A stretch of 64,000 nucleotides of DNA from Chloroflexota bacterium (GTDB taxonomy: Bacteria; Chloroflexota; Limnocylindria; Limnocylindrales; CSP1-4). This document shows positions 37,786 through 64,000 of the stretch, in pieces. The notes under the pieces are model-generated. The model saw only the letters and a program-made list of their open reading frames with translations, was not told where the DNA came from and searched no databases. A program made the position numbers and the translations under genes. Location of the stretch: assembly GCA_021787395.1 (NCBI GenBank), contig JAJYLZ010000003.1, positions 47,279 through 111,278 of the forward strand, in the 5' to 3' direction. Within the stretch, counting starts at the first letter, position 1. Every line of letters starts with the position of its first letter.

Positions 37786-38318
37786 GTCGCGTCACACCCC
37801 ACGCTGTCGGCCCGCTGACGGGAGCGCGGCCCGCCTGGGCCGCGCTCTCCCGGTCGAGCGCAGCCTGAGCCGGGTGTCGGGCGGATGGTCGGCCGGGCAC
37901 TGACCGACGACCCCCGACAACGGGCGCCCCCCTGTTGGAACCCGCCGCCAACCCGTCAGGGACCTCAGGAGGGGCGGCCGGTCACAGGCCGATCGTGGCC
38001 CTGAGCGGCCGTGTCGTCTCCCATACGGAAGTCCGGGCTCCCGCGTCCGGAGACGGCGCGGAGGGCCGCCGTCAGACCGAGAGCCTCGGCGCTTCACGAT
38101 TCCGCACAGGACTTCCGGAGCAGCCCGAGCCGGCGATCCGTCCGGACCCATCGCGGCCGCTTCGTCCCCGGCGAAGACGACGGACGACACGTGTGCCAGT
38201 CACGCGCGACGGCTTGAATGCGCCGAGAGGCGGCTGTCACGGGCGCCCGGGTCAAGGCGTCTCAGTCGCGGCCGCCCAAGACGGTCCCGTCACGGACCGG
38301 CGGCCGGGAGCGGGTGCG

Positions 38319-49294: not shown

Positions 49295-49304
49295 GGGCGC
49301 GTCC

Positions 49305-49781
49305 CTAGCCGCCGGCCTCGCGGACGGCGGCTTCCGCGCTGGCGAGCGCCTGGGCGACGAGGCCGGAGGCGACCTTGCCGTCGGCACGGCCGCGGATCCG
49401 CGGCGACAGCCAGCCCATGACCCTGCCCAGGTCGCGGCCGGTGGAGGCGCCGGTGGCGGCGATCCCCTCGTCCACGAGGGAGCGCAGCTCGTCCTCGGTC
49501 AGCTGCTGGGGCAGGTAGCCGGTGAGGATGGCGATCTCCGCCTCCTCCTTCGCGGCGAGGTCCTCGCGGCCGCCCTTGCGGAACGCCTCGACGCTCTCGC
49601 GGCGGGTCTTCACCTCGCGGGTGACGACGGCCAGGGCCTCGTCCTCGGACAGGGCCGCCTGCCTCGCCTTCTCAGTCTTGTAGATCGCGTCCTGCACCAT
49701 CCGCAGGACGTCGCGGCGCAGCGCGTCGCCCGACCGCATCGCGGCGGTCGTGTCGTCGTGGAGTCGTTCGCGTAGGGTCAT
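49305..49781 (-). CDS. GatB/YqeY domain protein
   Basis: Typical YqeY sequence (MTLRERLHDDTTAAMRSGDALRRDVLRMV...). It lies immediately downstream of rpsU, as in many bacteria. Confidence 0.8.
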   Translation of the reverse strand: MTLRERLHDDTTAAMRSGDALRRDVLRMVQDAIYKTEKARQAALSEDEALAVVTREVKTRRESVEAFRKGGREDLAAKEEAEIAILTGYLPQQLTEDELRSLVDEGIAATGASTGRDLGRVMGWLSPRIRGRADGKVASGLVAQALASAEAAVREAGG

Positions 49782-51540: not shown

Positions 51541-54339
51541 GTGAGCGGGAGCGGCGCCAAGTTCGTTGGGCGCTCCGGGGAACTCGGGGCGCTGCGCGCC
51601 CTGGGATCGCTCGCCGCGGGCGGACGAACCGCGGCGGCGGCGGTCGTCGCCGAGCCGGGCATCGGCAAGTCGTGGCTCCTTGCGGAAGCGGCGTCGACGA
51701 TCCGCCTTCCGTCCGTGCATGTCCAGGGATACGAGCCGGGGCGCGAGATCGCATTCGCCGCGGCCGGCGGGCTCCTGCGTGCGCTGTCGCGCGCCCCGGC
51801 CGATGGCAGCCGGCTCGAGGCGATGCTCCTCGGCGAGGCCGGAACCGCCGGCACGCTCGAAACGGTCCGGCTGTTCGAGGTCGGATTCCGATGCCTCGTC
51901 GAGCTGGCTCCGGTCGCCATTCTCGCGGACGACCTGCAGTGGGCGGACACGGAGACGCTCGCATTCCTCCACTACCTCGTCGCGGCGGCACAGGCCGACC
52001 GGGTCGCCCTGCTCCTCCTGTGCGCCAGTCGCCCCTCGGAGGCGGTCGAGCCGTTCGCCCGCGGTCTGGCCGAGCTCCTCACGCACCCGTACTTCCGGCG
52101 CATCGAGCTCGGGCCGCTGGGGCGGGAGGAGGGCATTGAGCTCGTCTCGGCGGTCACGCCGGGTCTCGGCGAGGAGGCGGCGGAGCGGCTGTGGCGTCGG
52201 GCCAAGGGGTCGCCGTTCTGGCTGGCCGCGCTGGCCGCCGAGAGCGGCGGGGGGGCCGACCCGACGGAGCTGATCCGCGGTCGGTGCGCCGGTCTTGACG
52301 CGGATTCCCGTCACCTGTTCGCCCTGCTGCTCGTGGCCGGCCAGCCGATGGCGGTCCAGGACCTCGCAGAGATTCTCGGCTGGCCGGACGAACGCGCCAG
52401 CCGGGCCGGCCGCAGCCTCGTCAATCGCGGGCTCGGTCTGATGAACGGCAACTTGCGGGTCGCCCATGACCTCATCCGGGAGTCCGCCGTGGTGACGATC
52501 CCAGACGACGAGCGGCGGGGCCTGGCGCGGCGGCTCGCCGAGTGGCTCGAGAGGTCGGCCGGCGAGGACATCCGAGCGCTCTCGCACGCGCTCGAGCACC
52601 GTCTCGCTGCCGGGCTGCCGGCCGGCGAGCTGGCGCTCCGCATCGCCAGCTCGTCGCAGCGGCGACTGCTCGGGGGCGAGGGCCTCTCGACCCTGGCGTC
52701 GATCGCAGACACGGCCACCGGCGAGACTGGGGTCGCCCTGCGGCGCTCGGTCGCGCGGCTAGCGAGCGAGCTGGGCCAATGGGATGTCGCGCTCGAGCGC
52801 TGGGCCGAGCTCGCCGACCGCCTCCCCGCAGACGCTGATCGCGCCGAGGCAGCGCTCGCGGCCGCTGCGGCGGCGTTCCGCCTCGAACGGCCCGGCGAGG
52901 TCCACGCGTTTGCGCGTCGTGCCCGAGCGGCTGGCCAGTCAGACCCTCGCATCGCGATCGAGGCTGACTGCCGCGACGTCCAGGCATTCAACTGGCTGGA
53001 AGGCCGGCCGGCCGACGCACAGCCGCTCGTCGATCGAGCGGTCGAATCCGCCGAGGCGCTCGCCGAGGGGGCGGGCGGCGTCGATGCCCTCGACGATGCG
53101 TCCTGCGACGCCTACGTCAGGGCTGTCCGGGCGAAGCTCGATGCAGCCATCCGGCGAGCTGACGCCGAGACGGTCGCGGACTGCGCCGGCCTGATCCAGC
53201 GTGTCGCGCGCGATCCCGCCGAGGCGCTCGCAGCGGCGTCGGACGCGATCTTCTCGACGCTCCAGTTCGAGGGCCTGCCCGGATCTGCCGAGCCGCGCGC
53301 GAACCGGGCGCTCGAGGAGGCGCGGCGGCTCGCCCTGCCAAACCTCGAGGTCGAGGCGACGCACTGGGCAGGCTGGTGCGCCCAGCATCGGGGGCGCCTC
53401 GACGAAGCGAGCGACCTGCTGCGGGAGGCGATCGCCCTCGCACAGCGCGTCGGATCGCCGCGCCGCTTCACCCTCGCGCAGTTGAACGCCATCCTGGCCA
53501 GCGTCGAGGCGAGCCGCGGCGATTGGCGCAGCGCGATCGCCGTCATCGAGCAGGCGATCGCGGACGAGCCGAACCCCCACTTCAGGCTTGTGATCCACAC
53601 GCTGCACCTCTGGGTCCTCGGCCGCTTCGCAGCCCCGGGATCGGTTCGCCTCGACGCGCTCATGGCGGCGATCGCGCCGGCGATCGACGCGGCGGGCTGC
53701 GGCCGCTGCCATGGAGAGGTCCTGCTCCACGGCGCCGAGGCGGCGGCCCGGCTGGGCGAACTCGAGCTGGCCGAGGCACTGCTCCGCGAGTGGGACGTCG
53801 GGCAGCCGACGCCGCATCCCGGGCCGACTGCCCGGCGCGCGTACGCGGCGGCACTGGTGGCGGCGGGACGAGACCCTGGCGACAGCCTGCCTTGGTTCGA
53901 TCGCGCCGCTGAGCAGGCGAAGGCGGCGGGGCATGACCTGATGCGGCTCTGGATCGAACTCGACCGGGCGATTGCACTCGCCGATGTCGACCGGGCCCGC
54001 GCGGTGAGCGCACTCCAGGTCCTTGCCAGCGAGGCCGATGCGATGGGGGCGGTGAGCGAGCAGCAACTCGCAACCCGGAAGCTCCGGGCGCTGGGCGTCC
54101 GCACGTGGCGGCGCGGGCGAACGGCGAACGCCGGCGAGCTCACCACCCGGGAGCGCGAGATTGCCGCGCTGGTCGCCGCGGGAGCCAGCAACCCGGAGAT
54201 CGCGCAGGCGCTCTTCCTGTCGCGGAAGACCGTGGAGCGGCACGTCTCGAACATCCTGGTCACGCTCGGGGCGCGTAACCGTGCCGAGCTCGCGGCGCGA
54301 CTTGTCGGGAGCGAGAGCCCCATCCGACGGGGCCCGTGA
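51541..54339 (+). CDS. large LuxR-family transcriptional regulator with an N-terminal AAA/P-loop ATPase and a TPR-like middle (LAL/MalT-like)
   Basis: Walker A AEPGIGKSWLL. C-terminal LuxR HTH (LTTREREIAALVAAGASNPEIAQALFLSRKTVERHVSNIL). GTG start. Confidence 0.8.
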   Translation: MSGSGAKFVGRSGELGALRALGSLAAGGRTAAAAVVAEPGIGKSWLLAEAASTIRLPSVHVQGYEPGREIAFAAAGGLLRALSRAPADGSRLEAMLLGEAGTAGTLETVRLFEVGFRCLVELAPVAILADDLQWADTETLAFLHYLVAAAQADRVALLLLCASRPSEAVEPFARGLAELLTHPYFRRIELGPLGREEGIELVSAVTPGLGEEAAERLWRRAKGSPFWLAALAAESGGGADPTELIRGRCAGLDADSRHLFALLLVAGQPMAVQDLAEILGWPDERASRAGRSLVNRGLGLMNGNLRVAHDLIRESAVVTIPDDERRGLARRLAEWLERSAGEDIRALSHALEHRLAAGLPAGELALRIASSSQRRLLGGEGLSTLASIADTATGETGVALRRSVARLASELGQWDVALERWAELADRLPADADRAEAALAAAAAAFRLERPGEVHAFARRARAAGQSDPRIAIEADCRDVQAFNWLEGRPADAQPLVDRAVESAEALAEGAGGVDALDDASCDAYVRAVRAKLDAAIRRADAETVADCAGLIQRVARDPAEALAAASDAIFSTLQFEGLPGSAEPRANRALEEARRLALPNLEVEATHWAGWCAQHRGRLDEASDLLREAIALAQRVGSPRRFTLAQLNAILASVEASRGDWRSAIAVIEQAIADEPNPHFRLVIHTLHLWVLGRFAAPGSVRLDALMAAIAPAIDAAGCGRCHGEVLLHGAEAAARLGELELAEALLREWDVGQPTPHPGPTARRAYAAALVAAGRDPGDSLPWFDRAAEQAKAAGHDLMRLWIELDRAIALADVDRARAVSALQVLASEADAMGAVSEQQLATRKLRALGVRTWRRGRTANAGELTTREREIAALVAAGASNPEIAQALFLSRKTVERHVSNILVTLGARNRAELAARLVGSESPIRRGP

Positions 54340-54410: not shown

Positions 54411-54689
54411 ATGGGGCTGCTGGTCGTGCTCGTACCTGCTGATCACCGCGGCTTGACGCTCGGCCAAGCCGCCGTCGAGGCGTTCGCCCGCCTCGGGGTG
54501 ACCAGCGTCTCCCTTGTGCGGGACGAGCAGATCGCGGGCGTCATCCTGGAGGGCTGGGCGTTCGATGGCAGGCGTGCGGACGCGGCACTGGCCGCGCTCG
54601 GAGTGACGCCGGGCGAGGCGCGGACGTTGCAGCCGGTGGTGCAGATGGCGGTCACGTCCGCCGCGATCGAAGGAGGAGTCCTCGAATGA
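54411..54689 (+). CDS. small hypothetical protein (92 aa)
   Basis: The composition looks coding. ATGA overlap with the downstream secreted peptide gene. No clear RBS. Confidence 0.4.
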   Translation: MGLLVVLVPADHRGLTLGQAAVEAFARLGVTSVSLVRDEQIAGVILEGWAFDGRRADAALAALGVTPGEARTLQPVVQMAVTSAAIEGGVLE

Positions 54690-54946
54690 AGCGCCTCGCA
54701 CTGGCACTCGCGCTCGTCGCCACGCTGGCGTTCGCCGGCACGGCGGCAGCCGCAGACCCGCCGGCGACGCCCACGGGCTACGCGGGGGCGGCGAACATGG
54801 TCAACCCCAACGCGCTGCCGGGCATGCTGAATGCCATGACCCAGGACGCGAACGGCAACGGCAACGGCGGCATGTGGTGTGCGGTGTACATCACGAATGG
54901 CCTGCAGGCGCCGGCCGGCTGCTCGGCCGTCAACGTCAGCTACTAG
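54686..54946 (+). CDS. small secreted Cys-containing protein (86 aa)
   Basis: AGGAGG RBS about 9 nt upstream. Signal peptide MKRLALALALVATLAFAGTAAAA. Mature region has 2 Cys and a GNGNGG stretch. Confidence 0.5.
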   Translation: MKRLALALALVATLAFAGTAAAADPPATPTGYAGAANMVNPNALPGMLNAMTQDANGNGNGGMWCAVYITNGLQAPAGCSAVNVSY

Positions 54947-55241: not shown

Positions 55242-56138
55242 ATGTCATCGGTGTTCCGCAAGCTTGCCGTCATGGGGGCGGGCGCAGCGCTCCTGCTCGG
55301 GGCGACGGCCGGGCTGTCAGCGGCCTCCTCGTCCAACAAGACGTACACCCTCGCGGTCAGCCCCGGGACCCTCCCCTACAGCCCGTCCACTGAGACGGCG
55401 CAGTTCACGGCGACCTTCAAGGACACGACACCGAGCGCCTCGATCAACTCGCTGACCCTGACCGCCCCGACGGGGTACACGGTCACGACCGCCCCGTCGC
55501 TCACCGCGAGCTCCGGGAACCTGGGCAACAACTACTCGGTCTCGGTGAGCTCCACGCTGCCGTCGACGATCACCGTGACCAACCTGTACCCGGTGGGCTA
55601 CAACCAGACCCTCACGCTCGCGTTCACGGCGACGGTGGACACCAGCAGCCTCACCTGCTCCAACAACGTCGGCACCTGGAGCTCCAACGCCTGGACCGGC
55701 TCGAACCAGAGCGGCGCCCAGTTCGCCCCCGCCTCGGCAACCACCACCGTGGGCGCCGCCCTGGCCGGCAGCACCAGCTACCCCAACATCGTCACCGGCG
55801 TCACGGTGACCAACAACGCGACCACCTGCGCGCTGGTCGGCATCAGCCGGTCCGGGAACAGCGTCACGGTCCTCAAGCCGGCCGGCTCGACCGTCAACGT
55901 CACGGTCGACGTCCTCTGGAACGCTGAGCCGGCGGTGTACCCGCTGCCGGCAACCCAGGTGGACACCCCGTCGCCGACGCACGACATCCAGTGGTGCGGC
56001 GGAACGTCGAGCTCGCCCACCATGCCGACGGGCGAGGTCTCCTGCCTGATCTCGGAGTCGTCGCAGATCGCCGGGTCCAACACCGTCCAGGTCCACGACG
56101 TGATCGCCCTGGACGGCGACTGGACCGCCCTGCGCTGA
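55242..56138 (+). CDS. secreted Ser/Thr-rich hypothetical protein
   Basis: AGGAGAGG RBS. Signal peptide MSSVFRKLAVMGAGAALLLGATAGLSAAS. T/S-rich beta-type sequence with 4 Cys. Confidence 0.6.
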   Translation: MSSVFRKLAVMGAGAALLLGATAGLSAASSSNKTYTLAVSPGTLPYSPSTETAQFTATFKDTTPSASINSLTLTAPTGYTVTTAPSLTASSGNLGNNYSVSVSSTLPSTITVTNLYPVGYNQTLTLAFTATVDTSSLTCSNNVGTWSSNAWTGSNQSGAQFAPASATTTVGAALAGSTSYPNIVTGVTVTNNATTCALVGISRSGNSVTVLKPAGSTVNVTVDVLWNAEPAVYPLPATQVDTPSPTHDIQWCGGTSSSPTMPTGEVSCLISESSQIAGSNTVQVHDVIALDGDWTALR

Positions 56139-56202: not shown

Positions 56203-59200
56203 TCACGTACCGGGGGCGGACGGGGCCAGCGGCACCTCGGCGACCTGCCGCACCCCGAGCCCGGCCAGCGCCGCCGCGGCGGCGGCCTCGTCCTTCGGCG
56301 ACGGCGTCCGGCCCTCGCTGCGGTCGAGGCGGGCGATCGCCGTCATGGTCAGGGCCCGCTGGAGGAGGTCGTCCCGCTCACGAGCGGCCGCGAGGCTCCG
56401 CTCGAGCGCCGCCCGGGCCCCGACGGGATCGCCGGTCTGGGCGAGCGCGTAGCCGCGCACCCGCTCCAGCTGCGGGAGGATCGGCCCGACCTCGTCCGTG
56501 CCGCGGCCCAGGGCCAGGACTTCGTCCACGATCCCGAGCGCCCGCCGCCCGTCGCCCATCAGGACGCGGCACTCGGCCCGGCGCGCCTCGTTGAGCGCGA
56601 GCTCCGCGCTGGCGCCGACGTGGACCCACTCGGTGCGCGCGTCATCGAACATCAACAGCGCCTCGTCGAAGCGCCCGGTCCGGGCCAGGAGGAGGGCGAG
56701 CACGCTCAGCGACGGCCCGACGCCCCAGCGGAGCCCGGCCGACCGGGCGACGCGCAGCGCATCGCGGAGCAGCGCCTCCGCCTCCTCGTAGGCGCCCTGC
56801 TCGTTGCGCAGCTCGGCCATGTTGGCCGCGGCGACTGAAGCAAGCGCGTAGTTGCCGATCCGGAGCAGCAGCTCCCGGGACTGGTCCGCGTAGCCGAGGG
56901 CCTCGTCCCAGCTGCCCGCGTAGAAGGCCCCCATGCCCAGGTTGCTCAGGACCAGCGCCTGGCCCGCGAGGTCACCGAGGTCCCGGTAGATCTCGAGGGC
57001 GCGGGTCCACGCGTCGCCGGTCGCCTCGCCCCGCTGGAGGCGAGCCCAGTCGAGGGCGTTGTAGGCTCGGGCCACGGCCTCGGGGGCGACGGCCCTCTCC
57101 CCCTCCGCGATCGCCTGCTCGGCCCACGCGACCGCCTCGTTCGGCCGGCCCTCGGCCTGCAGGAGCGTCGCCGTCCAGGCGGCCTGGTCGGCGCGCTCCC
57201 GGGCCGCCTCGATGCCGTCCACCCCCTCGAGCGCCTGCCTCGCCCGGGTCGCCCAGCGCAGCGCCCCCGAGAACCTGCCGAGCTTCTCCTCGATCCGGGA
57301 CCGCTTCAGCAGCAGCCGGGCCCGGGCCAGCGCGTCGTCGCCCGTCAGCCTGCGCACGAGGTCGAGCGCATCGCCCGCGTCCCGGAAGTCGCCGGCCCAG
57401 TAGAGGGCGTCGGCGCGCGCCTCCGCCACGGCCGCCATCTCGGCGGCCGGCACGCTCCGGGATGCCCGCGCCGCCGCGAGGGCCCGCCCGTACAGGGTCG
57501 CCGCCTCGGTGTTCGCGAACACGCGGGCAGCCCGCTCGCCGGCGGCGCGCGCGTAGCGCCACGCCCGCGCGTGGTCGCCGCCCAGCGCGAAGTGGAGGCT
57601 CAGGAGGCCGGCGAGCTCGTCCGGCTCGGCCGCCTCGCGCTCCAGGCGCGAGCCGACGGCGGCGTGGAGCCGCTGGCGCAGCCGGAACGGCAGGCCGGCG
57701 TAGGCGGCGTCCCGGACGATCGCCTGCCGGAAGCGGAGGTAGCCGCCCGCCTCGGGCTCGAGGAGCTCGGCCAGGCGCTCCCAGGTGCCCTCGGTGGGCT
57801 GGGGCGTCGCCTCGTCGAGCACGTCCGGCAGGAGGCGGGGGTGGAACGCGAGGCCGAACACGGACACGCGCCGGACGAGCTGGCGGTCGCGCGGGGCCAG
57901 GGCGTCGATCCGGACGGTCGCCGCCGCCTCGACCGAGTCGGGGAGCGAGCCGTCGCCCACCCTGGCGGCGTGGATCAGGTCGAGCAGGAGCTGCGGGTTG
58001 CCGGCCGACCGCTCGATCGTCTCGACCAGGACCCGCTCCGGCAGCGGCGCCTCGTCGGTGGCGGCGGCGGCCAAGGCCCGAGCGGCCGGCGGGGTCAGCG
58101 GGGCCAGGTCGAGGGTCTGCACCCCGGGCGCCTCGGGCGGCGCCGAGCCCGCGCCCTCGGGTCGCCGCAGCGCCAGCACGAGCCACGGCCGATCGTCCCG
58201 GGCGTCGGCGGCAAGCGCCCGGAGGAGGTCGACGGACGCCTCGTCCATGAGGTGCGCGTTGTCGAATGCGAACAGCGTCGGGCGGTCCAGGAGCGCGCGG
58301 AGCAGGTCCGCGACCGCCTGGTGCAGCCGCGGGCGGCGGTACTCGGGGGCGAGGGCCGCGACCTCGGGGGTGGCCTCCGCCTCGGCGCCCGCGGCGGCCG
58401 CGAGCAGCGGCACCCACGGGAGGAGGTCGGGGTCGAGCGCCTCGACCAGCTCGGCGAGCCGCTCGGCGACCGCCGGCGCCGGGGCGTCCCGCTCGACGCC
58501 GACGGCCTCGCGCAAGGCGTCCCGCCACGCCGCGTACGGGGTCGTCGAGGTGAACGCCTCGCCGGTGGCGCCGAGGACCCTGAAGTCCGGTGCGCGCTTG
58601 AGCACCTCGTCGAGGAGCCGCGTCTTGCCGAGCCCAGCCTCGCCCTGCAGCACGATCGCCTGGCGCCGGCCGGACCGCGCCGCGTCGAGGGCGTCCGCCA
58701 GCAGCCGCAGCTCCGCGTCGCGGCCCGTGAGCGGGAGGTCCTGGGCCGCCGTCCGCCTCGGCCGCCCGATGCGCGGCCCGACGGCCCAGGCGTGGACCGG
58801 CCGGGCCTTGCCCTTGACCAGGAACGGCTCGAGCTCGGCGGTCTCGAAGCGCGTCGCCGAGCCCTCGAGGACCGCGGCCGTCGCGAGGACCTGGCCCGGG
58901 GCCGCCCTGGCCATCAGCCGCGCGGCGAGGTTGACCGGGTCGCCCATGACCGTGTACGTCCGCCGGTACGGCGGGCCCACGTCGCCCGAGAACACGGGGC
59001 CGCGGTTGACGCCGACGCGGACCGGCAGCCGGCGCTCGCCCTCGGCGATGCGGCGGAGCGCCAGCAGCATCCGCTCCTCGTCGTCCCCCAGCATCCGGGG
59101 CACACCGGCGGTCAGGATGAGCTTGCCGCCGTCGGCGTCCACGTCCGAGGCCAGGAAGCACACGCCGTGCTCGTCGGCGGCCGCCTGGACGTCGCGCACG

Positions 59201-59982
59201 ACCTCGTCGAGGGCGGCGGCCGCCGCCTCAGGCCCGTCGCGCTCGATGAGCCCGTCGGTGCCGTCGAAGTGGACGAACGCGACGGTCGCCGACCGGTGCT
59301 CGGGCTCGGGCCCGGCCCGGATCGGCTCGCGGAGCGCCAGGGGCAGGTACAGCTCGAGGTCGGGCAGGTGCGCCGGCAGCGCCGAATCCGTGCCGGAACC
59401 GCTCGGCCCGTGGGGCGCCGACCTGAGCAGCCAGCCCGGGCCCTTCGCCTTCCCGACCAGGCGGCTCGGCAGGTGCGACGCCGTCGTCGGGCTCAGCAGG
59501 ATCTCGCCCGCCGTCGCCGCGGACTCCATCCGGACGGTCCCGGTCGCCGCCGGGCCGGCCACGAGCAGCTCGCGGTGCGAGCCCCCGACGAGGAAGAACT
59601 GGAACCGGCCGCTGTTGACCCCGATCGACATCCGGAGCGTGACGGCGCCGGCGGTCGTGGCCAGCGCGCCGGTCGAGCGCAGGGCGGCGCGCATGCCGTG
59701 GGCGGCCCGGACGGCGCGGGTCGCATGGCCGCCCTCGGCGAACCACAGCAGCAGCGCGTCGCCGCCGAACTTGAGCAGCCCGGCGCCCTCGGCGTAGGCG
59801 ACCGCGAGGAGCCGGGCGAAGACGCCCCCGAGGACCTCGGTGACCTCCTCGGCGCCGATCCGGCCGTGGCGGGCGAGGCGCTCGGACATCTTGGTGAAGC
59901 CGGAGATGTCCACGAAGACGAGCGAGCCGTCCTCCTCGCGCACGAGGCGCTCAGGGGCCTCGGCCGCCCACCGGACCGCCAT
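56203..59982 (-). CDS. class III adenylate/guanylate cyclase (two cyclase-homology domains) fused to an AAA ATPase and TPR repeats
   Basis: Two CHD domains (LVFVDISGFTKMSE... and ATVAFVHFDGTDGL...TVMGDPVNLAARL). Walker A GEAGLGKTRLL. C-terminal TPR-like helical repeats with no HTH. ATG at 59982. The alternative start is 60144. Confidence 0.85.
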   Translation of the reverse strand: MAVRWAAEAPERLVREEDGSLVFVDISGFTKMSERLARHGRIGAEEVTEVLGGVFARLLAVAYAEGAGLLKFGGDALLLWFAEGGHATRAVRAAHGMRAALRSTGALATTAGAVTLRMSIGVNSGRFQFFLVGGSHRELLVAGPAATGTVRMESAATAGEILLSPTTASHLPSRLVGKAKGPGWLLRSAPHGPSGSGTDSALPAHLPDLELYLPLALREPIRAGPEPEHRSATVAFVHFDGTDGLIERDGPEAAAAALDEVVRDVQAAADEHGVCFLASDVDADGGKLILTAGVPRMLGDDEERMLLALRRIAEGERRLPVRVGVNRGPVFSGDVGPPYRRTYTVMGDPVNLAARLMARAAPGQVLATAAVLEGSATRFETAELEPFLVKGKARPVHAWAVGPRIGRPRRTAAQDLPLTGRDAELRLLADALDAARSGRRQAIVLQGEAGLGKTRLLDEVLKRAPDFRVLGATGEAFTSTTPYAAWRDALREAVGVERDAPAPAVAERLAELVEALDPDLLPWVPLLAAAAGAEAEATPEVAALAPEYRRPRLHQAVADLLRALLDRPTLFAFDNAHLMDEASVDLLRALAADARDDRPWLVLALRRPEGAGSAPPEAPGVQTLDLAPLTPPAARALAAAATDEAPLPERVLVETIERSAGNPQLLLDLIHAARVGDGSLPDSVEAAATVRIDALAPRDRQLVRRVSVFGLAFHPRLLPDVLDEATPQPTEGTWERLAELLEPEAGGYLRFRQAIVRDAAYAGLPFRLRQRLHAAVGSRLEREAAEPDELAGLLSLHFALGGDHARAWRYARAAGERAARVFANTEAATLYGRALAAARASRSVPAAEMAAVAEARADALYWAGDFRDAGDALDLVRRLTGDDALARARLLLKRSRIEEKLGRFSGALRWATRARQALEGVDGIEAARERADQAAWTATLLQAEGRPNEAVAWAEQAIAEGERAVAPEAVARAYNALDWARLQRGEATGDAWTRALEIYRDLGDLAGQALVLSNLGMGAFYAGSWDEALGYADQSRELLLRIGNYALASVAAANMAELRNEQGAYEEAEALLRDALRVARSAGLRWGVGPSLSVLALLLARTGRFDEALLMFDDARTEWVHVGASAELALNEARRAECRVLMGDGRRALGIVDEVLALGRGTDEVGPILPQLERVRGYALAQTGDPVGARAALERSLAAARERDDLLQRALTMTAIARLDRSEGRTPSPKDEAAAAAALAGLGVRQVAEVPLAPSAPGT

Positions 59983-60222
59983 CCGCGGCAGGTACGGGAT
60001 CAGCCCGCTTCCCCTCGACGCGGGGGAGCCCACCGGGGGCACCAGCTGCTCGTCCACCCGCGGATCATAACGACAGGTTCGGATCGGGCGATGGAGCGAC
60101 GGCTTCCGCCGCGAGGCGACGTGCAGCACAATCCGTGCAGCCACCGCGCCCGGCCCGTATCCTGCGGCCCGAGGTCTGAGCGGTAGGTGGCTGGCGTCCC
60201 GGCCAGCTGTTGGAGGGTCGGC

Positions 60223-62043
60223 ATGGCGAGCAGCGTCCCCGGAGCAAGGCCAGGCCCGTTCGCCGTCCTACGCCGACGAAACTTCGCCCTCCTGTGGACC
60301 GGCCAGCTGGTCTCGACGATCGGGAGCGCCCTGACGTCGATCGCGGCAGGGATCCTCGTCTACCGGCTGACCGGCTCGGCCCTCTCGGTTGCCCTCACGC
60401 TGATGGCCACGGTGATCCCGAACCTTCTCATCGGCCTGATCGCCGGCGTCTATGTCGACCGCGTGGACCGCAAGCGGATCCTCATGGTCTCGGATCTGCT
60501 CCGGGGCCTGCTGGTCCTCCTCGTCCCGGTCCTGGTCGCCCTGCACATCGCGTGGCTCTATGTCGTCATCCTGCTCGCGAGCGCCATAACGACGTTCTTC
60601 GACCCGGCCTTCGAGGCCATCCTGCCCGAGCTCGCGCCGGACGAGGAGCTCGGCGCCGCGAATGCGCTCATGTCCATCAGCTCGTTCGGGTCCAATGCCA
60701 TCGGGTTCGCGGCGGCCGGCCTCATCTCCTCGACGATCGGCATCGACTGGGCGTTCCGCATCGACGCGGCGACGTTCGTCTTCTCGGCCGGGTGCGTCTT
60801 CCTGGCGCGTCTCCCCGTGACGGCGATGCCCGACCTCGCGTCGAGCGTCTCGTCCGTGTCGTCGAACCTGCGAACGGGCCTCCGCTACCTCTTCCACACG
60901 CCGATCCTCCGCTCGCTGGTCGTCGCCATGGCGATCTACGCCCTGGGGGTCGGGATCTGGAACTCGCTCCTGCTGCCGTTCTCGGAGCGCGCGCTGCACG
61001 CCACCGAGTTCGAGTACAGCCTGCAGGAAGGGCTGACCTCGGTCGGCTTCGTCGCCGCCAGCCTCCTCATGGCGAACTACGTCGATCGGCTTCGGGAGGG
61101 CCAGTGGCTGGCCCTCTCGTTCCTGGCCATGGGCGCGACCGGGATCCTGTACGCGAGCACCTCGTCCGTTCCCTTCGCGATCCTGCTGGTCATGATCTCG
61201 GGGTTCGCCAACGCTCCGGGGAACGTCGGCAAGCGCCTGATCATCCAGCGCCACACCCCGCGTGATCTCCGGGGGCGGGTCAACAGCGCCTACTTCGTCC
61301 AGCGCGACATCGTCTTCCTCGCCGGCATGGGCCTGGCGGGCCTGGCCGACATCGTCGATGTGCGCTACCTGGTGATGATGAGTGCGGTGCTGCTGGTCGG
61401 CGCGGGCCTGTTCGCGCTGGTCCTCCCGGGACTCGGTCAGCCCGCGGCCGCGTGGCGCCGCTCGGTGGCGATGCTCCGCGCCGCGCCGGCGACGGGCGGC
61501 CTGACGGTTGGCCGCATGCCGACCCTGGAGGACCTCGACCGCATGTTCGGGCACCTCCCGGCCCTCCAGGGCCTCGGCGACCGCGACCGGGGCGCGCTGC
61601 TCGACCGCTCGCTGGTCCGCGAGGCGGCCCCGGGCGTCCGGATCGTGTCCCACGGCGAGACGAGCCGCGCCGCCTACTTCATCCTCGACGGCCAGGTCCT
61701 CGTCGGGCACCCGCGCGACGACGGCTCGTACCGGAACCTCGCCACCCTCGTCACCGGCGACTACTTCGGCGAGGTGGCCGCGATCACGGGACGCCCGCGG
61801 ACGGCCGACGTGGTGGCGACCGAGCCGACGACGGTGCTGGAGGTCCCCGCCGAGGTCCTCCGCGGCCTGATGGCGAACGAGGCCGTCAGCCACATCATCC
61901 TGGCGACGATGAGCCGTCGCCTCACGGAGCGCTATGCGGTCGACCTGCCCCGCCTCGCCGGGCTGGGCCAGGAGGACCTGCTCGACCTCCGCACGCCGCG
62001 CGCCGAGGGCGCAGCGCCCGTCCTCCAGGGCGACGCCACGTGA
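60223..62043 (+). CDS. MFS transporter with a C-terminal cyclic-nucleotide-binding (CAP-type) domain
   Basis: GGAGGG RBS 5 nt upstream of the ATG at 60223. 12 TM segments. C-terminal cNMP motif YFILDGQV...GDYFGEVAAITGRPRTADVVATEPTTVLEV. Confidence 0.8.
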   Translation: MASSVPGARPGPFAVLRRRNFALLWTGQLVSTIGSALTSIAAGILVYRLTGSALSVALTLMATVIPNLLIGLIAGVYVDRVDRKRILMVSDLLRGLLVLLVPVLVALHIAWLYVVILLASAITTFFDPAFEAILPELAPDEELGAANALMSISSFGSNAIGFAAAGLISSTIGIDWAFRIDAATFVFSAGCVFLARLPVTAMPDLASSVSSVSSNLRTGLRYLFHTPILRSLVVAMAIYALGVGIWNSLLLPFSERALHATEFEYSLQEGLTSVGFVAASLLMANYVDRLREGQWLALSFLAMGATGILYASTSSVPFAILLVMISGFANAPGNVGKRLIIQRHTPRDLRGRVNSAYFVQRDIVFLAGMGLAGLADIVDVRYLVMMSAVLLVGAGLFALVLPGLGQPAAAWRRSVAMLRAAPATGGLTVGRMPTLEDLDRMFGHLPALQGLGDRDRGALLDRSLVREAAPGVRIVSHGETSRAAYFILDGQVLVGHPRDDGSYRNLATLVTGDYFGEVAAITGRPRTADVVATEPTTVLEVPAEVLRGLMANEAVSHIILATMSRRLTERYAVDLPRLAGLGQEDLLDLRTPRAEGAAPVLQGDAT

Positions 62044-62927
62044 GGCCTGGCTCGAGCGGGGCGGTCGCAGACGGCAGCCTCGAGGTCATCGTCCTCGGCG
62101 CGGCGCCGTCGGCCCCCCAGCCCGACGGGCAGGGCTCCGGGCTGCTGGTCCGCTCGCGCGGGACGAGCCTGCTCCTCGACATCGGGGTAGGAGTCGTGCC
62201 GCAGCTCGGGCGGATCATGGACCCGTATGCGCTGTCCGCCATCCTGGTGACCCACTTCCACGCGGACCACTACCTCGACCTCGTCTCGTACCGGTACGGC
62301 CTGCCGTGGATCGGCGTCACCGGGGAGCGCGTCCCGGTCCTGCTCCCCCCCGGCGGGCGCCAGCAGCTCGAGGGCCTCGCCGCGGCCATCTGCGAGGGCG
62401 CCGACTTCTTCTCGCGGGCGCTCGACCTCTGCGAGTACGACCCGGCGGCCTCCGTCGAGGTCGGCGACCTGGCGGTCTCGTTCGTGCCGTCGCAGCACTA
62501 CGTGGACGCGTGGGGGGTCGTGGTCGCGGGCCCGGGCGGGCACCCGCGGGTCGTCGTCTCGAGCGACACCGGGCCGAACCCGGCGCTCGTGGAGGCTTCC
62601 CGCGACGCGGACCTCCTGGTCGCCGAGGCGACGCTCGAGCATGCCGCCGAGGACGTGCAGCCGCGCGGCCACCTGACGGCCGACGAGGCCGTGGCGATCG
62701 GACGGGAGGCTGGCGCCCGCCGCGTGCTCCTCACCCACCTGCCCACGGCTCGCCGCCCGGCGCTCCGAGCGGCCTATACCGGGATCCGGCCGCGGGTCAC
62801 CGTGGCGCGGCCGGGCCTCAGGATCACGCTGACCGCCCGGTCCCCGCATCCCGCCGCAAGCGCGGGGCGGGCGGTGAGGCCGGCGCTCCCGGACGACGGT
62901 GGGGCCGCCTCCGGCGAGCGGCCGTGA
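62040..62927 (+). CDS. MBL-fold metallo-hydrolase
   Basis: GTG overlaps the upstream TGA. Motif LVTHFHADHYLDL (HxHxDH). Confidence 0.7.
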   Translation: MRPGSSGAVADGSLEVIVLGAAPSAPQPDGQGSGLLVRSRGTSLLLDIGVGVVPQLGRIMDPYALSAILVTHFHADHYLDLVSYRYGLPWIGVTGERVPVLLPPGGRQQLEGLAAAICEGADFFSRALDLCEYDPAASVEVGDLAVSFVPSQHYVDAWGVVVAGPGGHPRVVVSSDTGPNPALVEASRDADLLVAEATLEHAAEDVQPRGHLTADEAVAIGREAGARRVLLTHLPTARRPALRAAYTGIRPRVTVARPGLRITLTARSPHPAASAGRAVRPALPDDGGAASGERP

Positions 62928-64000
62928 TCGAGGGGCCGGAGGGGCCGGCAGGCGGGGGCGATCGCCCCGCGGGTGTACGAGGCGCGGGCGGCCCGGCATC
63001 GGAGGACCACAGGCAGAGTCTCCGGGCCGCCGCCCTGCTGCTGTTCGGCGACGGCGGGGTCGCGGCGTCGATCGCGCGGCTCGCGACCGTCGCCGGGGTC
63101 CCGGCGGGCGCGACCGTGTTCCGCCAGGGCAGCCCGGCCGACTCCGCGTACCTCGTCCTGAGCGGGCGCCTCCGCGTGGTCCGCCACGACGACGGCGCGG
63201 ACGAGGTCCTCGCGGACGTCGTGCGCGGGGAGATCGTGGGCGAGCTGGCGCTGCTCACCGGTGAGGATCGCTCGGCCACCGTGTACGCGGTGCGCGACAC
63301 GGTGGTCGCCCGCATCGGCGCGAGCGACTTCGACGCGCTCCTGCGGTCGAACCCCGAGGCAGCGCTGCCGATCATGCGGTTCCTCGCCGGCCGCCTGCGG
63401 CGCTTCACCGTGCAGCGGGGGACTGCGGCCGACACGGACAGCACCGTGGCGGTGTTCGCGCTCGGCGCGGTCGACGCCGTGGCCTACGCGCGGGAGCTGG
63501 CCGAGGCGATCGGCGTCCGCGTCCCGGTGGAGACCGTCCTCCCCGGGCAGGCCCGCGGCGCCGACCTCGCTGCCGCCTTCGAGCACCGCGGACCGACGGG
63601 GCGCGTGCTCGTTTGCCCCGGCGAGCCCGGGTGGACGCCGTGGAACGACGCGGCGCTCCGCCACGCCGATGAGGTGCTGCTGCTGGCCGATGCGGACGAG
63701 GATCCGGGACCGGGAGCCGTCGACGCCGCCGTGTTCTCGCCCCGCGAGCACAGTGGACCGCGGGTGACGCTGGTCGTCCGCCACCCGGACGGCCGGAGCC
63801 CGAGCGGGACCGTGCGCTGGCTCGCACCGCGCCCGGGCGTTGACCATCTCCACGTCCGCGCCGGCAGCGGCGCCGATGTCGCCCGCGTGGGGCGGTGGGT
63901 GACCGGCCGGAGCGTCGGTCTGGTGCTCGGCGGCGGCGGGGCGAGGGGCTGGGCGCATCTGGGAGCGCTCCGGGCGATCGAGGAGCTGGGCATCCCCATC
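62924..64000 (+). CDS. cyclic-nucleotide-binding domain plus patatin-like phospholipase, 3' partial
   Basis: Frame 2 is open from the GTG at 62924 (overlapping the upstream TGA) to the window end. It is not in the ORF track because it has no stop. cNMP-binding segment VFRQGSPADSAYLVLSGRLRVV...GEIVGELALLTGEDRSATVYAV. Patatin oxyanion motif LVLGGGGARGWAHLGALRAIEELGIP at the end. Confidence 0.7.
   Translation, partial: MIEGPEGPAGGGDRPAGVRGAGGPASEDHRQSLRAAALLLFGDGGVAASIARLATVAGVPAGATVFRQGSPADSAYLVLSGRLRVVRHDDGADEVLADVVRGEIVGELALLTGEDRSATVYAVRDTVVARIGASDFDALLRSNPEAALPIMRFLAGRLRRFTVQRGTAADTDSTVAVFALGAVDAVAYARELAEAIGVRVPVETVLPGQARGADLAAAFEHRGPTGRVLVCPGEPGWTPWNDAALRHADEVLLLADADEDPGPGAVDAAVFSPREHSGPRVTLVVRHPDGRSPSGTVRWLAPRPGVDHLHVRAGSGADVARVGRWVTGRSVGLVLGGGGARGWAHLGALRAIEELGIPI

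What the first reader, a model, noticed from the sequence alone, without database searches (positions are those of the whole stretch)
56203..64000. Compact cAMP module: a giant adenylate cyclase divergent from an operon of cNMP-binding effectors (MFS, MBL, patatin)
A roughly 1260-aa adenylate cyclase with two cyclase domains, an AAA ATPase and TPR repeats is transcribed divergently, with about 240 bp between the starts. The facing three-gene operon is translationally coupled, with a GTGA overlap at both junctions. Its members are an MFS transporter fused to a CAP-type cNMP-binding domain, an MBL-fold hydrolase, and a cNMP-binding patatin-like phospholipase. Mycobacteria carry single polypeptides that combine MFS, cNMP-binding and patatin/NTE parts (for example the Rv3239c type). 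Here the same parts are split into an operon, with an MBL hydrolase inserted between them, and sit next to their likely second-messenger source. Putting a cyclic-nucleotide generator beside a cNMP-gated phospholipase effector resembles the logic of Pycsar/CBASS defence. The cyclase is a large regulatory type, though, so a defence role is speculative. A cAMP-controlled lipid-remodelling and export unit is the more conservative reading.
Basis: partly seen in the sequence, partly recalled or inferred. Interest (0 to 1): 0.75.

Follow-up and report, generated by a model that had tools for sequence, protein, structure and literature searches.

The report
Self-contained cyclic-AMP signalling gene cassette
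A soil-type Chloroflexota bacterium keeps the likely maker, the likely breaker and two likely sensors of a cyclic-nucleotide signal side by side; the parts are known protein families and only their arrangement as one cassette is unusual.

Summary
A ~1260-1280-aa cyclase (two cyclase domains, AAA_16, TPR) lies divergent from three overlapping genes (GTGA at both junctions). These encode an MFS_3 transporter fused to a cNMP-binding domain, an MBL-fold protein, and a cNMP-binding NTE-type patatin lipase.

The interpretation needs four corrections.
1. The host is most likely Chloroflexota (Limnocylindria), not Actinobacteria.
2. The cyclase is a soluble-adenylyl-cyclase (ADCY10)-type enzyme. It has complementary C1/C2 halves plus a STAND-like AAA_16/TPR tail.
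3. The MBL protein is probably the cassette's cyclic-nucleotide phosphodiesterase, of the YhfI/Rv1339 "atypical class II" kind, not an unrelated insertion. Its relatives in Limnocylindria sit between a CRP regulator gene and a cyclase gene.
4. Only cyclase + MFS-cNMP + MBL are co-conserved, in six lineages. The patatin gene fills a variable fourth slot: it is present in two lineages, cleanly absent in the closest relative, and replaced by other genes elsewhere.

A Pycsar/CBASS-like defence role is not supported. PADLOC matches are weak and cover single domains, the neighbourhood is housekeeping, and an eraser is co-transcribed.

No biochemical activity is shown, and the nucleotide produced is inferred. 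Verdict: a new variant of a known kind, of moderate interest.

The parts
56203..60042 (-). Cyclase gene: sAC (ADCY10)-type tandem cyclase with an AAA_16 (STAND-like) and TPR tail. It is 1279 aa from GTG 60042. Alternative starts are ATG 59982 and GTG 60144, the upstream limit of the ORF.
   Evidence: ORF; gene call; Pfam domains.
59425..59943 (-). First cyclase domain (C1-like). It carries both metal-binding Asp residues: FVDISGFT at 59893-59916 and KFGGD at 59758-59772. It lacks the catalytic Asn (Thr instead, in GPAATGTVRMES).
   Evidence: It aligns to human sAC C1 residues 19-192, including Asp47, Lys95 and Asp99. D45, G93, G94 and D95 are invariant in 45 family members.
58765..59301 (-). 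Second cyclase domain (C2-like). Both metal Asp positions are lost (His in FVHFDGTD, Gly in DADGGK). It keeps Thr364, Asn371 and Arg375 in YTVMGDPVNLAARL (58915-58956).
   Evidence: It aligns to sAC C2 residues 381-454. No Lys is found at the canonical purine-specifying position.
58177..58731 (-). AAA_16 P-loop NTPase domain; Walker A motif GEAGLGKT at 58621-58644.
   Evidence: Pfam AAA_16, E 6e-23.
56317..56973 (-). TPR / MalT-like repeat region, the presumed sensor or interaction module.
   Evidence: Pfam TPR_12 (6e-18) and TPR_MalT. The family profile also matches AfsR and the PH0952 TPR sensor in the PDB.
60043..60222 (.). Divergent control region. It contains the direct repeat CGTGCAGC-N6-CGTGCAGC at 60120-60141.
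   Evidence: Repeat found. In the alignment with L010 the repeat and its flanks are identical, and this stretch looks more conserved than the adjacent coding DNA. Function untested.
60223..62043 (+). MFS_3 / DHA3-type transporter (hydrophobic segments within aa 29-401) fused to a C-terminal cNMP-binding domain (aa ~466-552). The phosphate-binding cassette FGEVAAITGRPRTA lies at 61765-61806.
   Evidence: Pfam and NCBIfam; hydropathy. The cassette ends in RTA in all 120 listed family members.
62040..62927 (+). MBL-fold protein, 295 aa, inferred cyclic-nucleotide phosphodiesterase. THFHADH at 62250-62270; invariant H153, D176, H211 and H233.
   Evidence: Best NCBIfam match is NF041851 'cyclic nucleotide-degrading phosphodiesterase', 119 bits and full length. 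Best solved relatives are 1ZKP and YhfI 6KNS. Invariant columns. Gene context.
62924..64000 (+). First 359 codons of a 628-aa NTE-type patatin lipase. cNMP-binding domain at 63098-63352 (cassette VGELALLTGEDRSA at 63236-63277), NTE_Ploop at 63635-63868, patatin domain from 63920 (GGGGARG at 63929-63949). Ser366 and Asp478 lie beyond the window.
   Evidence: The full gene is L001:10885-12771.

Best explanation
This is a chromosomal cyclic-nucleotide (most likely cAMP) signalling cassette of a Limnocylindria-type Chloroflexota bacterium.

Writer. The cyclase is of the soluble-adenylyl-cyclase type. One polypeptide folds its two complementary cyclase domains into a single active site: C1 supplies the two metal-binding Asp residues, and C2 supplies Thr, Asn and Arg. 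Its activity is presumably set by the AAA_16 (STAND-like) and TPR tail.

Readers and eraser. The divergent, translationally coupled operon encodes three proteins. The eraser is a YhfI/Rv1339-type MBL-fold phosphodiesterase that hydrolyses the messenger. Because it is co-expressed with the readers, the signal would be local and self-limiting. The accessory second reader is an NTE/PNPLA6-type patatin (lyso)phospholipase with an N-terminal cNMP-binding domain.

Shown here: gene order and overlaps, domain content, intact catalytic and ligand-binding motifs, the predicted sAC-like and YhfI-like folds, and conservation of the cyclase + MFS-cNMP + MBL core.

Inferred: that the product is cAMP, that the MBL protein hydrolyses it, that the cNMP domains bind it and change the activity of their partner domains, and what the transporter and lipase act on.
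For: Cyclase.
- The best solved relative of the tandem region is human ADCY10, with two collinear matches to C1 and C2. E is 1.2e-20 for the single sequence and 2.4e-30 for a 45-sequence family profile, against 2.7e-23 for the next cyclase.
- The AlphaFold model (pLDDT 93.3, pTM 0.90) matches sAC crystal structures over ~465 columns. The top 24 hits are all sAC, TM 0.76-0.80.
- D45, G93-G94-D95 and R375 are invariant, and K91, T364 and N371 are at least 90% conserved.
- Full-length sAC likewise carries a predicted STAND P-loop region after C1-C2 (PMC12802110).

MBL as eraser.
- Best NCBIfam hit is 'cyclic nucleotide-degrading phosphodiesterase', 119 bits and end to end, against 84 bits for RNase Z.
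- Best solved relatives by sequence and by fold are BA1088 (1ZKP) and YhfI (6KNS/6KNT), target-normalised TM 0.83-0.89. The paper that characterised Rv1339 used YhfI as the structural template for the 'atypical class II PDE' group (PMC9293780).
- The metal ligands are invariant.
- In 42 of 80 species-representative loci a CRP-type gene is divergent from the MBL gene, and 32 of those also have a Zn-ribbon-cyclase-AAA_16 gene convergent on it.

Readers.
- Both phosphate-binding cassettes are intact, and the MFS one is invariant in 120 of 120 relatives.
- The patatin GGxRG, GxSxG and DGG motifs are present and align to PlpD.

Cassette.
- Cyclase <-> MFS-cNMP -> MBL is found in six lineages at 55-87% identity.
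- The fourth slot often holds another cNMP-binding protein: two more MFS-cNMP genes in one contig, and a GNAT gene followed by a stand-alone cNMP domain gene in another.
- More distant MFS-cNMP genes sit in clusters with a cyclase, SulP-STAS-cNMP, cNMP-SpoIIE and CRP genes.
Against: - No activity has been measured for any of the four proteins.
- The MBL protein scores far below the NCBIfam equivalog cut-off (119 against 400 bits). Its THxHxDH motif is shared with RNase Z.
- The 42 CRP-linked loci lie in a broadly syntenic ~20 kb region, so they are not independent observations.
- In L096/L097 the MBL gene has lost its N-terminal ~107 residues, including the metal motif, while the rest of the operon persists. 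The eraser is therefore dispensable there.
- I found no Lys at the canonical purine-specifying position of C2, so cAMP as the product is unproven.
- The window has an Arg at or next to the position of sAC's bicarbonate-site Arg176, but that position is not conserved in the family. Bicarbonate control cannot be claimed.
- In the wider MFS-cNMP family 13 of 22 well-flanked loci have no cyclase nearby, and none has an MBL or patatin gene.
Confidence: 0.6

Rival explanations
1. All four genes form one cAMP-controlled lipid-remodelling and export pathway. The patatin lipase releases a lipid product, the MBL hydrolase processes it, and the MFS protein exports or flips it. This would be a split version of the mycobacterial MFS-cNMP-NTE fusion proteins.
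For: - All three + strand genes overlap by GTGA.
- The four-gene order recurs in L096/L097 at ~71-74% identity.
- The MFS part has weak similarity to the lysophospholipid transporter LplT and to LplT-acyltransferase fusions (5e-7 and 5e-14).
- Mycobacterial reviews list transporters and phospholipases among predicted cAMP effectors (PMC9995111).
Against: - The patatin gene is cleanly absent from the closest relative L010, with otherwise identical synteny. It is replaced by unrelated genes in three other lineages.
- A 64%-identical patatin homologue stands alone, away from any such module.
- The MBL clade is otherwise found with CRP and cyclase genes and no lipid genes.
- The MFS part is much closer to EntS, Tap and Mef exporters than to LplT.
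- No MFS+cNMP+patatin fusion appeared among the top hits.
Confidence: 0.15
2. The MBL protein is an RNase Z/BN-like nuclease or another phosphodiesterase that only happens to lie in the operon, as the JGI annotation 'ribonuclease BN' suggests. On this view the cassette has a writer and readers but no dedicated eraser.
For: - RNase Z families match at 1e-23.
- ELAC and RNase Z structures are among the fold hits, TM ~0.62-0.70 normalised to the query.
- The THxHxDH motif is shared with RNase Z.
- The gene is truncated in L096 without loss of the operon.
Against: - RNase Z matches are split or partial and score lower than the PDE family.
- The best structural matches are the short YhfI/BA1088 type.
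- The gene is repeatedly placed beside cNMP receptors and cyclases, in two different arrangements.
Confidence: 0.15
3. It is an anti-phage system with Pycsar-like logic. The cyclase senses infection and makes a cyclic nucleotide, which activates a membrane effector and a phospholipase that kill the cell.
For: - PADLOC gives weak matches of the cyclase domains to PycC (24-32 bits) and of both cNMP domains to PycTIR (51-67 bits).
- Pfam's Anti-Pycsar_Apyc1 model weakly matches the MBL protein (17 bits against a cut-off of 50).
- STAND NTPases and patatin effectors occur in known defence systems (general knowledge).
Against: - The matches cover single domains only, and the MBL protein hits no PADLOC model.
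- The neighbours are housekeeping or metabolic genes (Mfd, aminotransferase, glyoxalase, AraC, MFS, acyl-CoA ligase, ClC channel). No integrase or other mobile-element gene appeared among the called genes around the operon or among the eight large window ORFs I scanned.
- The locus is syntenic among relatives.
- The cyclase family is very large and uniform: 1909 cluster representatives at E<=1e-30.
- The MFS-cNMP family is also abundant: 2489 hits at E<=1e-20.
- A co-transcribed messenger-degrading enzyme would work against an abortive-infection signal (inference).
Confidence: 0.04

Closest known systems
Mammalian soluble adenylyl cyclase (ADCY10, full-length isoform) and the bicarbonate-activated bacterial adenylyl cyclases related to it (Chloroflexus; Kobayashi et al., as cited in PMC11006738)
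   Same: - C1-C2 tandem in one chain.
- C1 carries the metal-binding Asp pair and the Lys95 equivalent; C2 carries Thr, Asn and Arg.
- A P-loop STAND-like region follows the catalytic core.
- sAC is the best match by sequence, by profile and by predicted fold (PMC12802110).
   Different: - Only 23% identity to human sAC.
- The Arg176 bicarbonate-site position is not conserved in the family.
- No Lys was identified at the Lys334 position.
- No haem or autoinhibitory region was looked for.
- Activity and regulation are untested.
Atypical class II cyclic-nucleotide phosphodiesterases: B. subtilis YhfI, M. tuberculosis Rv1339, C. glutamicum CpdA
   Same: - MBL fold and the [T/S]HxHxDH motif.
- An invariant Asp at the MBL motif-4 position (D176), where Rv1339's bridging Asp180 is expected from the fold; no direct alignment with Rv1339 was made.
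- Size of ~250-300 aa.
- Best NCBIfam and PDB matches.
   Different: - Scores below the NCBIfam equivalog cut-off (119 against 400 bits).
- Here the gene is embedded in operons with cyclases and cNMP receptors. I do not know of that arrangement for Rv1339 or CpdA (own knowledge, not checked).
- The CRP-linked sister clade has GHxHADH rather than [T/S]HxHxDH.
NTE / PNPLA6 / Swiss-cheese family and its bacterial homologues (Rv2565 type; patatin domain like P. aeruginosa PlpD)
   Same: - cNMP-binding domain + NTE_Ploop + patatin domain.
- Oxyanion-hole motif GGxRG and the Ser-Asp catalytic dyad.
   Different: - One cNMP domain and 628 aa, against ~750 aa for most of the weaker bacterial hits listed, several of which carry two or three cassette-like motifs.
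- No membrane anchor was noted.
- Here the gene lies next to a cyclase and a putative PDE.
M. tuberculosis cNMP-domain transporters Rv3239c and Rv3728
   Same: Both are listed as MFS efflux proteins (PMC6300501), and Rv3728 also as a hypothetical esterase (PMC10865251). From my own knowledge they combine MFS, cNMP-binding and NTE-esterase parts.
   Different: - Their architecture was not verified with the tools here.
- In the window the parts are separate genes, and the lipase gene is dispensable in relatives.
Pycsar (PycC cyclase plus a cNMP-domain effector) and the phage MBL nuclease Apyc1
   Same: A class III-type cyclase beside cNMP-domain effectors. The MBL protein shares the fold of Apyc1 (7U2S/7U2R, TM ~0.62-0.66 normalised to the query).
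   Different: - The cyclase is a giant regulatory type, not a compact PycC.
- The effectors are a transporter and an NTE-type lipase rather than TIR or small TM proteins.
- The setting is housekeeping and syntenic.
- PADLOC matches are weak and limited to single domains.

Membership tests
Class III nucleotidyl cyclase, soluble-adenylyl-cyclase (ADCY10) type | Two cyclase homology domains in one polypeptide that form a pseudo-heterodimer | tested here: met
   Pfam finds two Guanylate_cyc stretches. The AlphaFold model (pLDDT 93.3) superposes on sAC structures at TM 0.76-0.80 over ~465 columns.
Class III nucleotidyl cyclase, soluble-adenylyl-cyclase (ADCY10) type | C1 supplies two metal-binding Asp residues; C2 supplies the transition-state Asn and Arg plus Thr at the second specificity position | tested here: met
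   D45 and D95 are invariant. T364 and N371 are at least 90% conserved and R375 is invariant. C2 has His and Gly at the metal positions.
Class III nucleotidyl cyclase, soluble-adenylyl-cyclase (ADCY10) type | Adenine-specifying Lys in C2 (sAC Lys334) | tested here: inconclusive
   No Lys or Arg lies in the corresponding strand (GVCFLASD). A different conserved Lys sits in DGGK. The alignment of this loop is uncertain.
Class III nucleotidyl cyclase, soluble-adenylyl-cyclase (ADCY10) type | Bicarbonate site (sAC Lys95 and Arg176) | tested here: inconclusive
   The Lys95 equivalent (K91) is at least 90% conserved. The window has an Arg at or next to the Arg176 position, one register off in the HMMER alignment, but that position is variable in the family.
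Class III nucleotidyl cyclase, soluble-adenylyl-cyclase (ADCY10) type | C-terminal STAND-like P-loop region | tested here: met
   AAA_16 (6e-23) followed by TPR_12 and TPR_MalT. Full-length sAC is described with a predicted STAND P-loop (PMC12802110). Direct homology of the two tails was not tested.
Atypical class II cNMP phosphodiesterase (YhfI / Rv1339 / CpdA) | MBL fold with the [T/S]HxHxDH motif and an invariant Asp at the bridging (motif 4) position | tested here: met
   THFHADH is present. H72, H74, D76, H77, H153, D176 and H233 are invariant in 28 relatives. The model's best matches are 1ZKP and YhfI. The motif is as defined in PMC9293780 and is not unique to this family.
Atypical class II cNMP phosphodiesterase (YhfI / Rv1339 / CpdA) | Scores above the curated NCBIfam NF041851 cut-off | tested here: not met
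   119 bits against a cut-off of 400. It is nevertheless the best-scoring family, and the match is full length.
Atypical class II cNMP phosphodiesterase (YhfI / Rv1339 / CpdA) | Hydrolyses 3',5'-cyclic nucleotides | not testable with these tools
   The only support is gene context: CRP and cyclase neighbours in 42 and 32 of 80 loci (not independent), plus the window's own arrangement.
CAP/PKA-type cyclic-nucleotide-binding domain (PF00027) | Phosphate-binding cassette with the conserved Glu and Arg | tested here: met
   FGEVAAITGRPRTA and VGELALLTGEDRSA. Pfam scores are 63 and 81 bits against a cut-off of 27.5. The cassette is invariant in 120 of 120 MFS-cNMP relatives.
NTE / PNPLA6-type patatin phospholipase | GGxRG oxyanion hole, GxSxG nucleophile, DG[GA] catalytic Asp, NTE_Ploop linker, N-terminal cNMP domain | tested here: met
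   GGGGARG, GTSQG (Ser366) and DGG (Asp478) are in the full protein from L001. Patatin scores 84.6 bits and NTE_Ploop 30.3 bits against a cut-off of 27.
MFS_3 / DHA3 exporters (EntS, Tap, Mef) | Pfam MFS_3 and TIGR00900 membership | tested here: inconclusive
   MFS_3 scores 100 bits against a cut-off of 27 (met). TIGR00900 scores 206 bits against a cut-off of 320 (not met). The substrate cannot be inferred.
Pycsar anti-phage system | PycC-type cyclase and a cNMP-domain killing effector, in a defence setting | tested here: not met
   PycC models score 14-32 bits on single domains. The effector models match only through the cNMP domain. The neighbourhood is housekeeping and syntenic. Protection against phage cannot be tested here.
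Mycobacterial MFS-cNMP-NTE fusion proteins (Rv3239c / Rv3728) | A single polypeptide that combines MFS, cNMP-binding and NTE/patatin parts, homologous to the window's genes | not tested
No such fusion appeared among the 120 best hits of either search. The held literature lists them only as MFS pumps or a hypothetical esterase.

The most novel reading that the evidence does not exclude
The cassette could be a self-contained bacterial 'signalosome'. An sAC-type cyclase, an operon-encoded eraser and receptors fused directly to their outputs would let one cyclic nucleotide gate a secondary (MFS) exporter and switch on an NTE/PNPLA6-type lysophospholipase.

If so, it would give a first ligand-gated MFS transporter. 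It would also give a tractable prokaryotic model for what the cNMP-binding domains of NTE-family enzymes do. Because no canonical purine-specifying Lys was found, the messenger might not be cAMP.
Probability: 0.3. Interest if true: 0.6.

Novelty: new variant of a known kind. Interest (0 to 1): 0.4.

Why it matters
Every part belongs to a known family. The arrangement, however, assigns roles that are otherwise hard to establish.
- It gives genomic support that a YhfI/Rv1339-like MBL clade in Chloroflexota acts as a cyclic-nucleotide eraser.
- It places two poorly understood receptor types beside a probable messenger source: cNMP-domain MFS transporters and cNMP-domain NTE-type lipases. The function of the corresponding domains in the fly orthologue of human PNPLA6 is still being worked out (PMC12710771, abstract seen).
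- It shows that the sAC-type C1-C2 plus P-loop/TPR architecture is abundant in bacteria (1909 cluster representatives at E<=1e-30). That offers many bacterial relatives for studying the little-understood tail of full-length sAC.

The cassette is small enough to test in vitro. It is not a new kind of system and is unlikely to be a defence system.

Tried and rejected
1. Defence reading. PADLOC gave only weak single-domain matches and nothing for the MBL protein, and the neighbourhood is housekeeping. Rejected as the main reading.
2. Treating the 42 of 80 CRP-MBL and 32 of 80 CRP-MBL-cyclase loci as independent evidence. The flanking ~20 kb is also syntenic among those loci. I therefore count them as essentially one lineage-level observation, plus the window's separate arrangement.
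3. L075 (a Solirubrobacteraceae MAG) has an MBL relative 4.4 kb from an sAC-type cyclase. Hsp20 and Lon genes lie between them, so I do not count it.
4. Bicarbonate regulation. The Lys95 equivalent is conserved but the Arg176 position is not. Not claimed.
5. Product specificity from sequence. No canonical Lys was found in C2 and the loop alignment is uncertain. Left open.
6. Rosetta-stone test with Rv3239c/Rv3728. The sequences could not be obtained, no fusions appeared in the top hits, McCue et al. 2000 is not held, and combined literature searches returned nothing.
7. Rfam (gathering threshold) found no RNA family in the window. The promoter and terminator scans found no promoter-like site and only one terminator-like site, inside the cyclase gene and within chance expectation.
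8. Cluster look-up for source names returned none. The taxonomy therefore rests on named relatives.
It informs on the wider family, not on close relatives.
10. MBL relative P0003 and patatin relative P0183 share the same longest-contig length (4599 bp).

Full report
**1. What is in the sequence**

The region holds four genes.
- On the minus strand, an ORF at 56203..60144 (1313 aa at most) encodes the cyclase.
- A gene caller on contig L001 starts it at GTG 60042, giving 1279 aa. L001 matches the window at 11960 of 11961 overlapping bases.
- On the plus strand lie a 606-aa gene (ATG 60223..62043), a 295-aa gene (GTG 62040..62927) and a gene that starts at GTG 62924 and runs off the window.
- Both junctions are GTGA overlaps.

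- Cyclase: Guanylate_cyc x2, AAA_16 and TPR_12.
- Transporter: MFS_1/MFS_3 plus cNMP_binding.
- Third gene: Lactamase_B_2.
- Fourth gene: cNMP_binding, NTE_Ploop and Patatin.

L001 supplies the rest of the patatin gene (628 aa). It has GGGGARG, GTSQG (Ser366, just past the window end) and DGG (Asp478). Both cNMP domains keep the Glu and Arg of the phosphate-binding cassette. In the MFS family the cassette ends in RTA in all 120 listed relatives.

**2. Whose genome**

- The named relatives of the MFS-cNMP protein at ~70% identity are 'Candidatus Limnocylindrales bacterium' MAGs.
- The species-representative genomes with the closest MBL relatives (41-51% identity) are Limnocylindrales/Limnocylindria and other Chloroflexota MAGs. 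Solirubrobacteraceae and Eremiobacterota appear only at lower identity.
- The exact proteins occur in NCBI MAG GCA_021785115.1 and in ENA and Logan assemblies. None carries a name.
- The rest of the window is ordinary chromosome: Mfd, an alpha-2-macroglobulin-like giant, an aminotransferase, an S9 peptidase and a PgpH-like 7TM-HD protein.

**3. The cyclase is of the soluble-adenylyl-cyclase type**

- Against solved structures, the tandem catalytic region matches human ADCY10 best (E 1.2e-20). There are two collinear stretches: domain 1 to C1 (residues 19-192) and domain 2 to C2 (381-454).
- A profile of 45 family members raises this to 2.4e-30, ahead of every single-domain bacterial cyclase.
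- An AlphaFold model of residues 1-447 (pLDDT 93.3, pTM 0.90) superposes on sAC crystal structures at TM 0.76-0.80 over ~465 columns. The top 24 hits are all sAC, and AC9 follows at ~0.70.
- The two halves are complementary, as in sAC. Domain 1 keeps both metal-binding Asp residues and the Lys95 equivalent but has Thr in place of the catalytic Asn. Domain 2 has His and Gly at the metal positions but keeps Thr364, Asn371 and Arg375.
- These residues are invariant or at least 90% conserved in the family.
- The AAA_16 and TPR tail parallels the predicted STAND P-loop region of full-length sAC (PMC12802110). Bicarbonate activation has been reported for adenylyl cyclases of Chloroflexus (Kobayashi et al., as cited in PMC11006738).

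Two cautions apply. The position of sAC's bicarbonate-site Arg176 is not conserved in this family. I also could not find a Lys at the purine-specifying position of domain 2. The product is therefore inferred to be cAMP, not shown.

The family is large. 1909 cluster representatives match at E<=1e-30, and most of the best 150 are ~1260-1300 aa long.

**4. The MBL protein is probably the eraser**

- Its best NCBIfam match is NF041851 'cyclic nucleotide-degrading phosphodiesterase' (119 bits, end to end). That is above RNase Z (84 bits) but far below the equivalog cut-off of 400.
- Its best solved relatives are BA1088 (1ZKP) and B. subtilis YhfI (6KNS), both by sequence and by fold. The model has pLDDT 91.5, and target-normalised TM is 0.83-0.89. 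PhnP, Apyc1 and RNase Z rank lower.
- YhfI, Rv1339 and C. glutamicum CpdA define the 'atypical class II PDE' group, with the motif [T/S]HxHxDH (PMC9293780). The window protein has THFHADH, and all metal ligands are invariant among 28 relatives.
- That motif also occurs in RNase Z, so it is consistent with the assignment but not diagnostic.

The strongest argument is gene context. Among 80 species-representative loci that hold a relative, 42 have a CRP-type regulator gene (cNMP_binding + HTH_Crp_2) divergent immediately upstream. Of those, 32 also have a Zn-ribbon-cyclase-AAA_16 gene convergent immediately downstream. These loci are syntenic over ~20 kb, so together they amount to roughly one lineage-level observation. 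The window's clade, however, places the same MBL family in a second and different cyclic-nucleotide setting. The MBL gene is not always kept: in L096/L097 it lacks the first ~107 residues, including the metal motif.

**5. What is conserved and what is not**

The core cyclase(-) <-> MFS-cNMP(+) -> MBL(+) occurs in six lineages:
- the window lineage (L001-L005);
- L010 (MFS 87% identical);
- two JGI contigs (~70%);
- L011/L012 (~65%);
- L096/L097 (~71%).

The fourth position varies.
- The cNMP-NTE patatin gene is there in the window and in L096/L097.
- L010 has nothing there. The MBL gene abuts the same glyoxalase, AraC, MFS and AMP-binding genes that follow the patatin gene in the window. This is a clean ~1.95 kb indel, most simply a deletion in L010.
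- One JGI contig has two further MFS-cNMP genes. The other has a low-molecular-weight phosphatase gene.
- L011 has a GNAT gene, a stand-alone cNMP domain gene and an oxidoreductase gene.
- A 64%-identical patatin homologue stands alone elsewhere.

In the wider MFS-cNMP family (50-59% identity) two long contigs show 'cAMP islands'. There the MFS-cNMP gene is followed by a cyclase-AAA_16-TPR gene and then by SulP-STAS-cNMP, cNMP-SpoIIE and CRP genes. Of 22 metagenomic loci with at least 2.5 kb on both sides, 9 have a cyclase gene within ~7 kb and 14 have a cyclase or another cNMP gene. None has an MBL or patatin relative.

A three-gene core is co-conserved, and the lipase is an accessory reader.

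**6. Most likely mechanism**

- The sAC-type cyclase integrates an unknown input through its STAND/TPR tail and makes a cyclic nucleotide.
- The nucleotide binds the C-terminal domain of the MFS_3/DHA3 transporter and the N-terminal domain of the NTE-type lipase, and changes transport and (lyso)phospholipase activity.
- The co-translated MBL phosphodiesterase removes the messenger, keeping the signal local and transient.
- The divergent control region contains a conserved direct repeat, CGTGCAGC-N6-CGTGCAGC, that could be an operator.

Every step after gene content, motifs and predicted folds is inference. My confidence is about 0.6 for the writer/eraser/reader reading as a whole.

**7. Rival readings**

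- A single lipid-remodelling pathway involving all four genes is weakened by the dispensability of the lipase and by the MBL clade's lipid-free contexts (~0.15).
- The MBL protein as an RNase Z/BN-like enzyme remains possible (~0.15).
- A Pycsar-like defence system is unlikely (~0.04). PADLOC hits are weak and cover single domains, the locus is syntenic and housekeeping, both the cyclase and the MFS-cNMP families are very abundant, and an eraser is co-transcribed.

**8. Comparison with known systems, and novelty**

Each protein is a new member of a known family: sAC-type class III cyclase, YhfI/Rv1339-like MBL, CAP-type cNMP domains, an MFS_3 exporter and an NTE-type patatin lipase. cNMP-domain transporters and phospholipases are already listed as predicted but uncharacterised cAMP effectors in mycobacteria (PMC9995111; PMC10865251). 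I could not verify the Rv3239c-type fusion with the tools.

What I did not find described is the operonic writer/eraser/reader layout with a variable reader slot, or the link of this MBL clade to cAMP genes in Chloroflexota. The full-text searches for these combinations returned nothing, but they cover only part of the literature.

I rate the finding as a new variant of a known kind, with interest 0.4. It is testable and useful for assigning functions, but it is neither a new principle nor a defence system.

Noticed in passing
window 51541-54339 (+): A 932-aa AAA_16-TPR-GerE (LuxR-type STAND) regulator gene lies ~2 kb from the cyclase gene. A 963-aa protein of the same architecture also lies near the module in L096/L097, in a different position. 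It might regulate the cassette; this is untested.
   Followed up: partly
window 55242-56138 (+): A 298-aa Ser/Thr-rich protein with an N-terminal signal-peptide-like segment matches no Pfam, NCBIfam or PADLOC family. It converges on the 3' end of the cyclase gene. Unannotated genes of 298-307 aa occupy the same position in three other lineages, and one of 372 aa in a fourth. Homology was confirmed only for L010.
   Followed up: partly
window 60120-60141: The direct repeat CGTGCAGC-N6-CGTGCAGC lies in the divergent intergenic region. It is identical in L010, in a stretch that looks more conserved than the flanking coding DNA. It is a possible operator.
   Followed up: partly
L013-L066 and L088 (e.g. 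L013:9193-12915): A conserved Limnocylindria triad: a CRP-type regulator gene divergent from an MBL relative, on which a Zn-ribbon-cyclase-AAA_16 gene (703 aa in L013) converges. The full triad is seen in 32 species representatives, within a syntenic housekeeping region.
   Followed up: yes
L094:8001-17800 and L095:8001-17797: 'cAMP islands' in other Chloroflexota. The MFS-cNMP gene is followed by a cyclase-AAA_16-TPR gene, a ~140-aa unknown gene, and SulP-STAS-cNMP, cNMP-SpoIIE and CRP genes, all on one strand.
   Followed up: partly
L096:3420-4001 and L097:1944-2525: The MBL gene is shortened to 193 aa. It has lost the first ~107 residues, including the HxHxDH metal motif, yet still overlaps the MFS-cNMP gene and precedes the patatin gene. 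It is probably an inactive remnant.
   Followed up: yes
L011:9875-10438 and L007:9864-10427: A 187-aa GNAT protein with a zf-UBP zinc finger (Acetyltransf_CG + zf-UBP) directly follows, and overlaps, the MBL gene in two lineages. One lineage has the cyclase and the other does not. This recalls the cAMP-regulated acetyltransferases of mycobacteria, but the protein has no cNMP domain of its own.
   Followed up: no
window 47135-49498 (-): A 7TM receptor with an intracellular HD hydrolase domain (7TMR-HDED + 7TM-7TMR_HD + HD). From my own knowledge this is the architecture of the c-di-AMP phosphodiesterase PgpH. It would be another nucleotide-messenger enzyme ~7 kb from the cassette.
   Followed up: no
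window 54411-54946 (+): Two small overlapping ORFs (92 and 86 aa) with no Pfam match lie between the LuxR-type regulator gene and the secreted-protein gene. They were called as genes on L001.
   Followed up: no
window 37869-43367 (+): A very large ORF (~1830 aa) with Big_5 and an alpha-2-macroglobulin bait-region domain. It appears unrelated to the finding.
   Followed up: no
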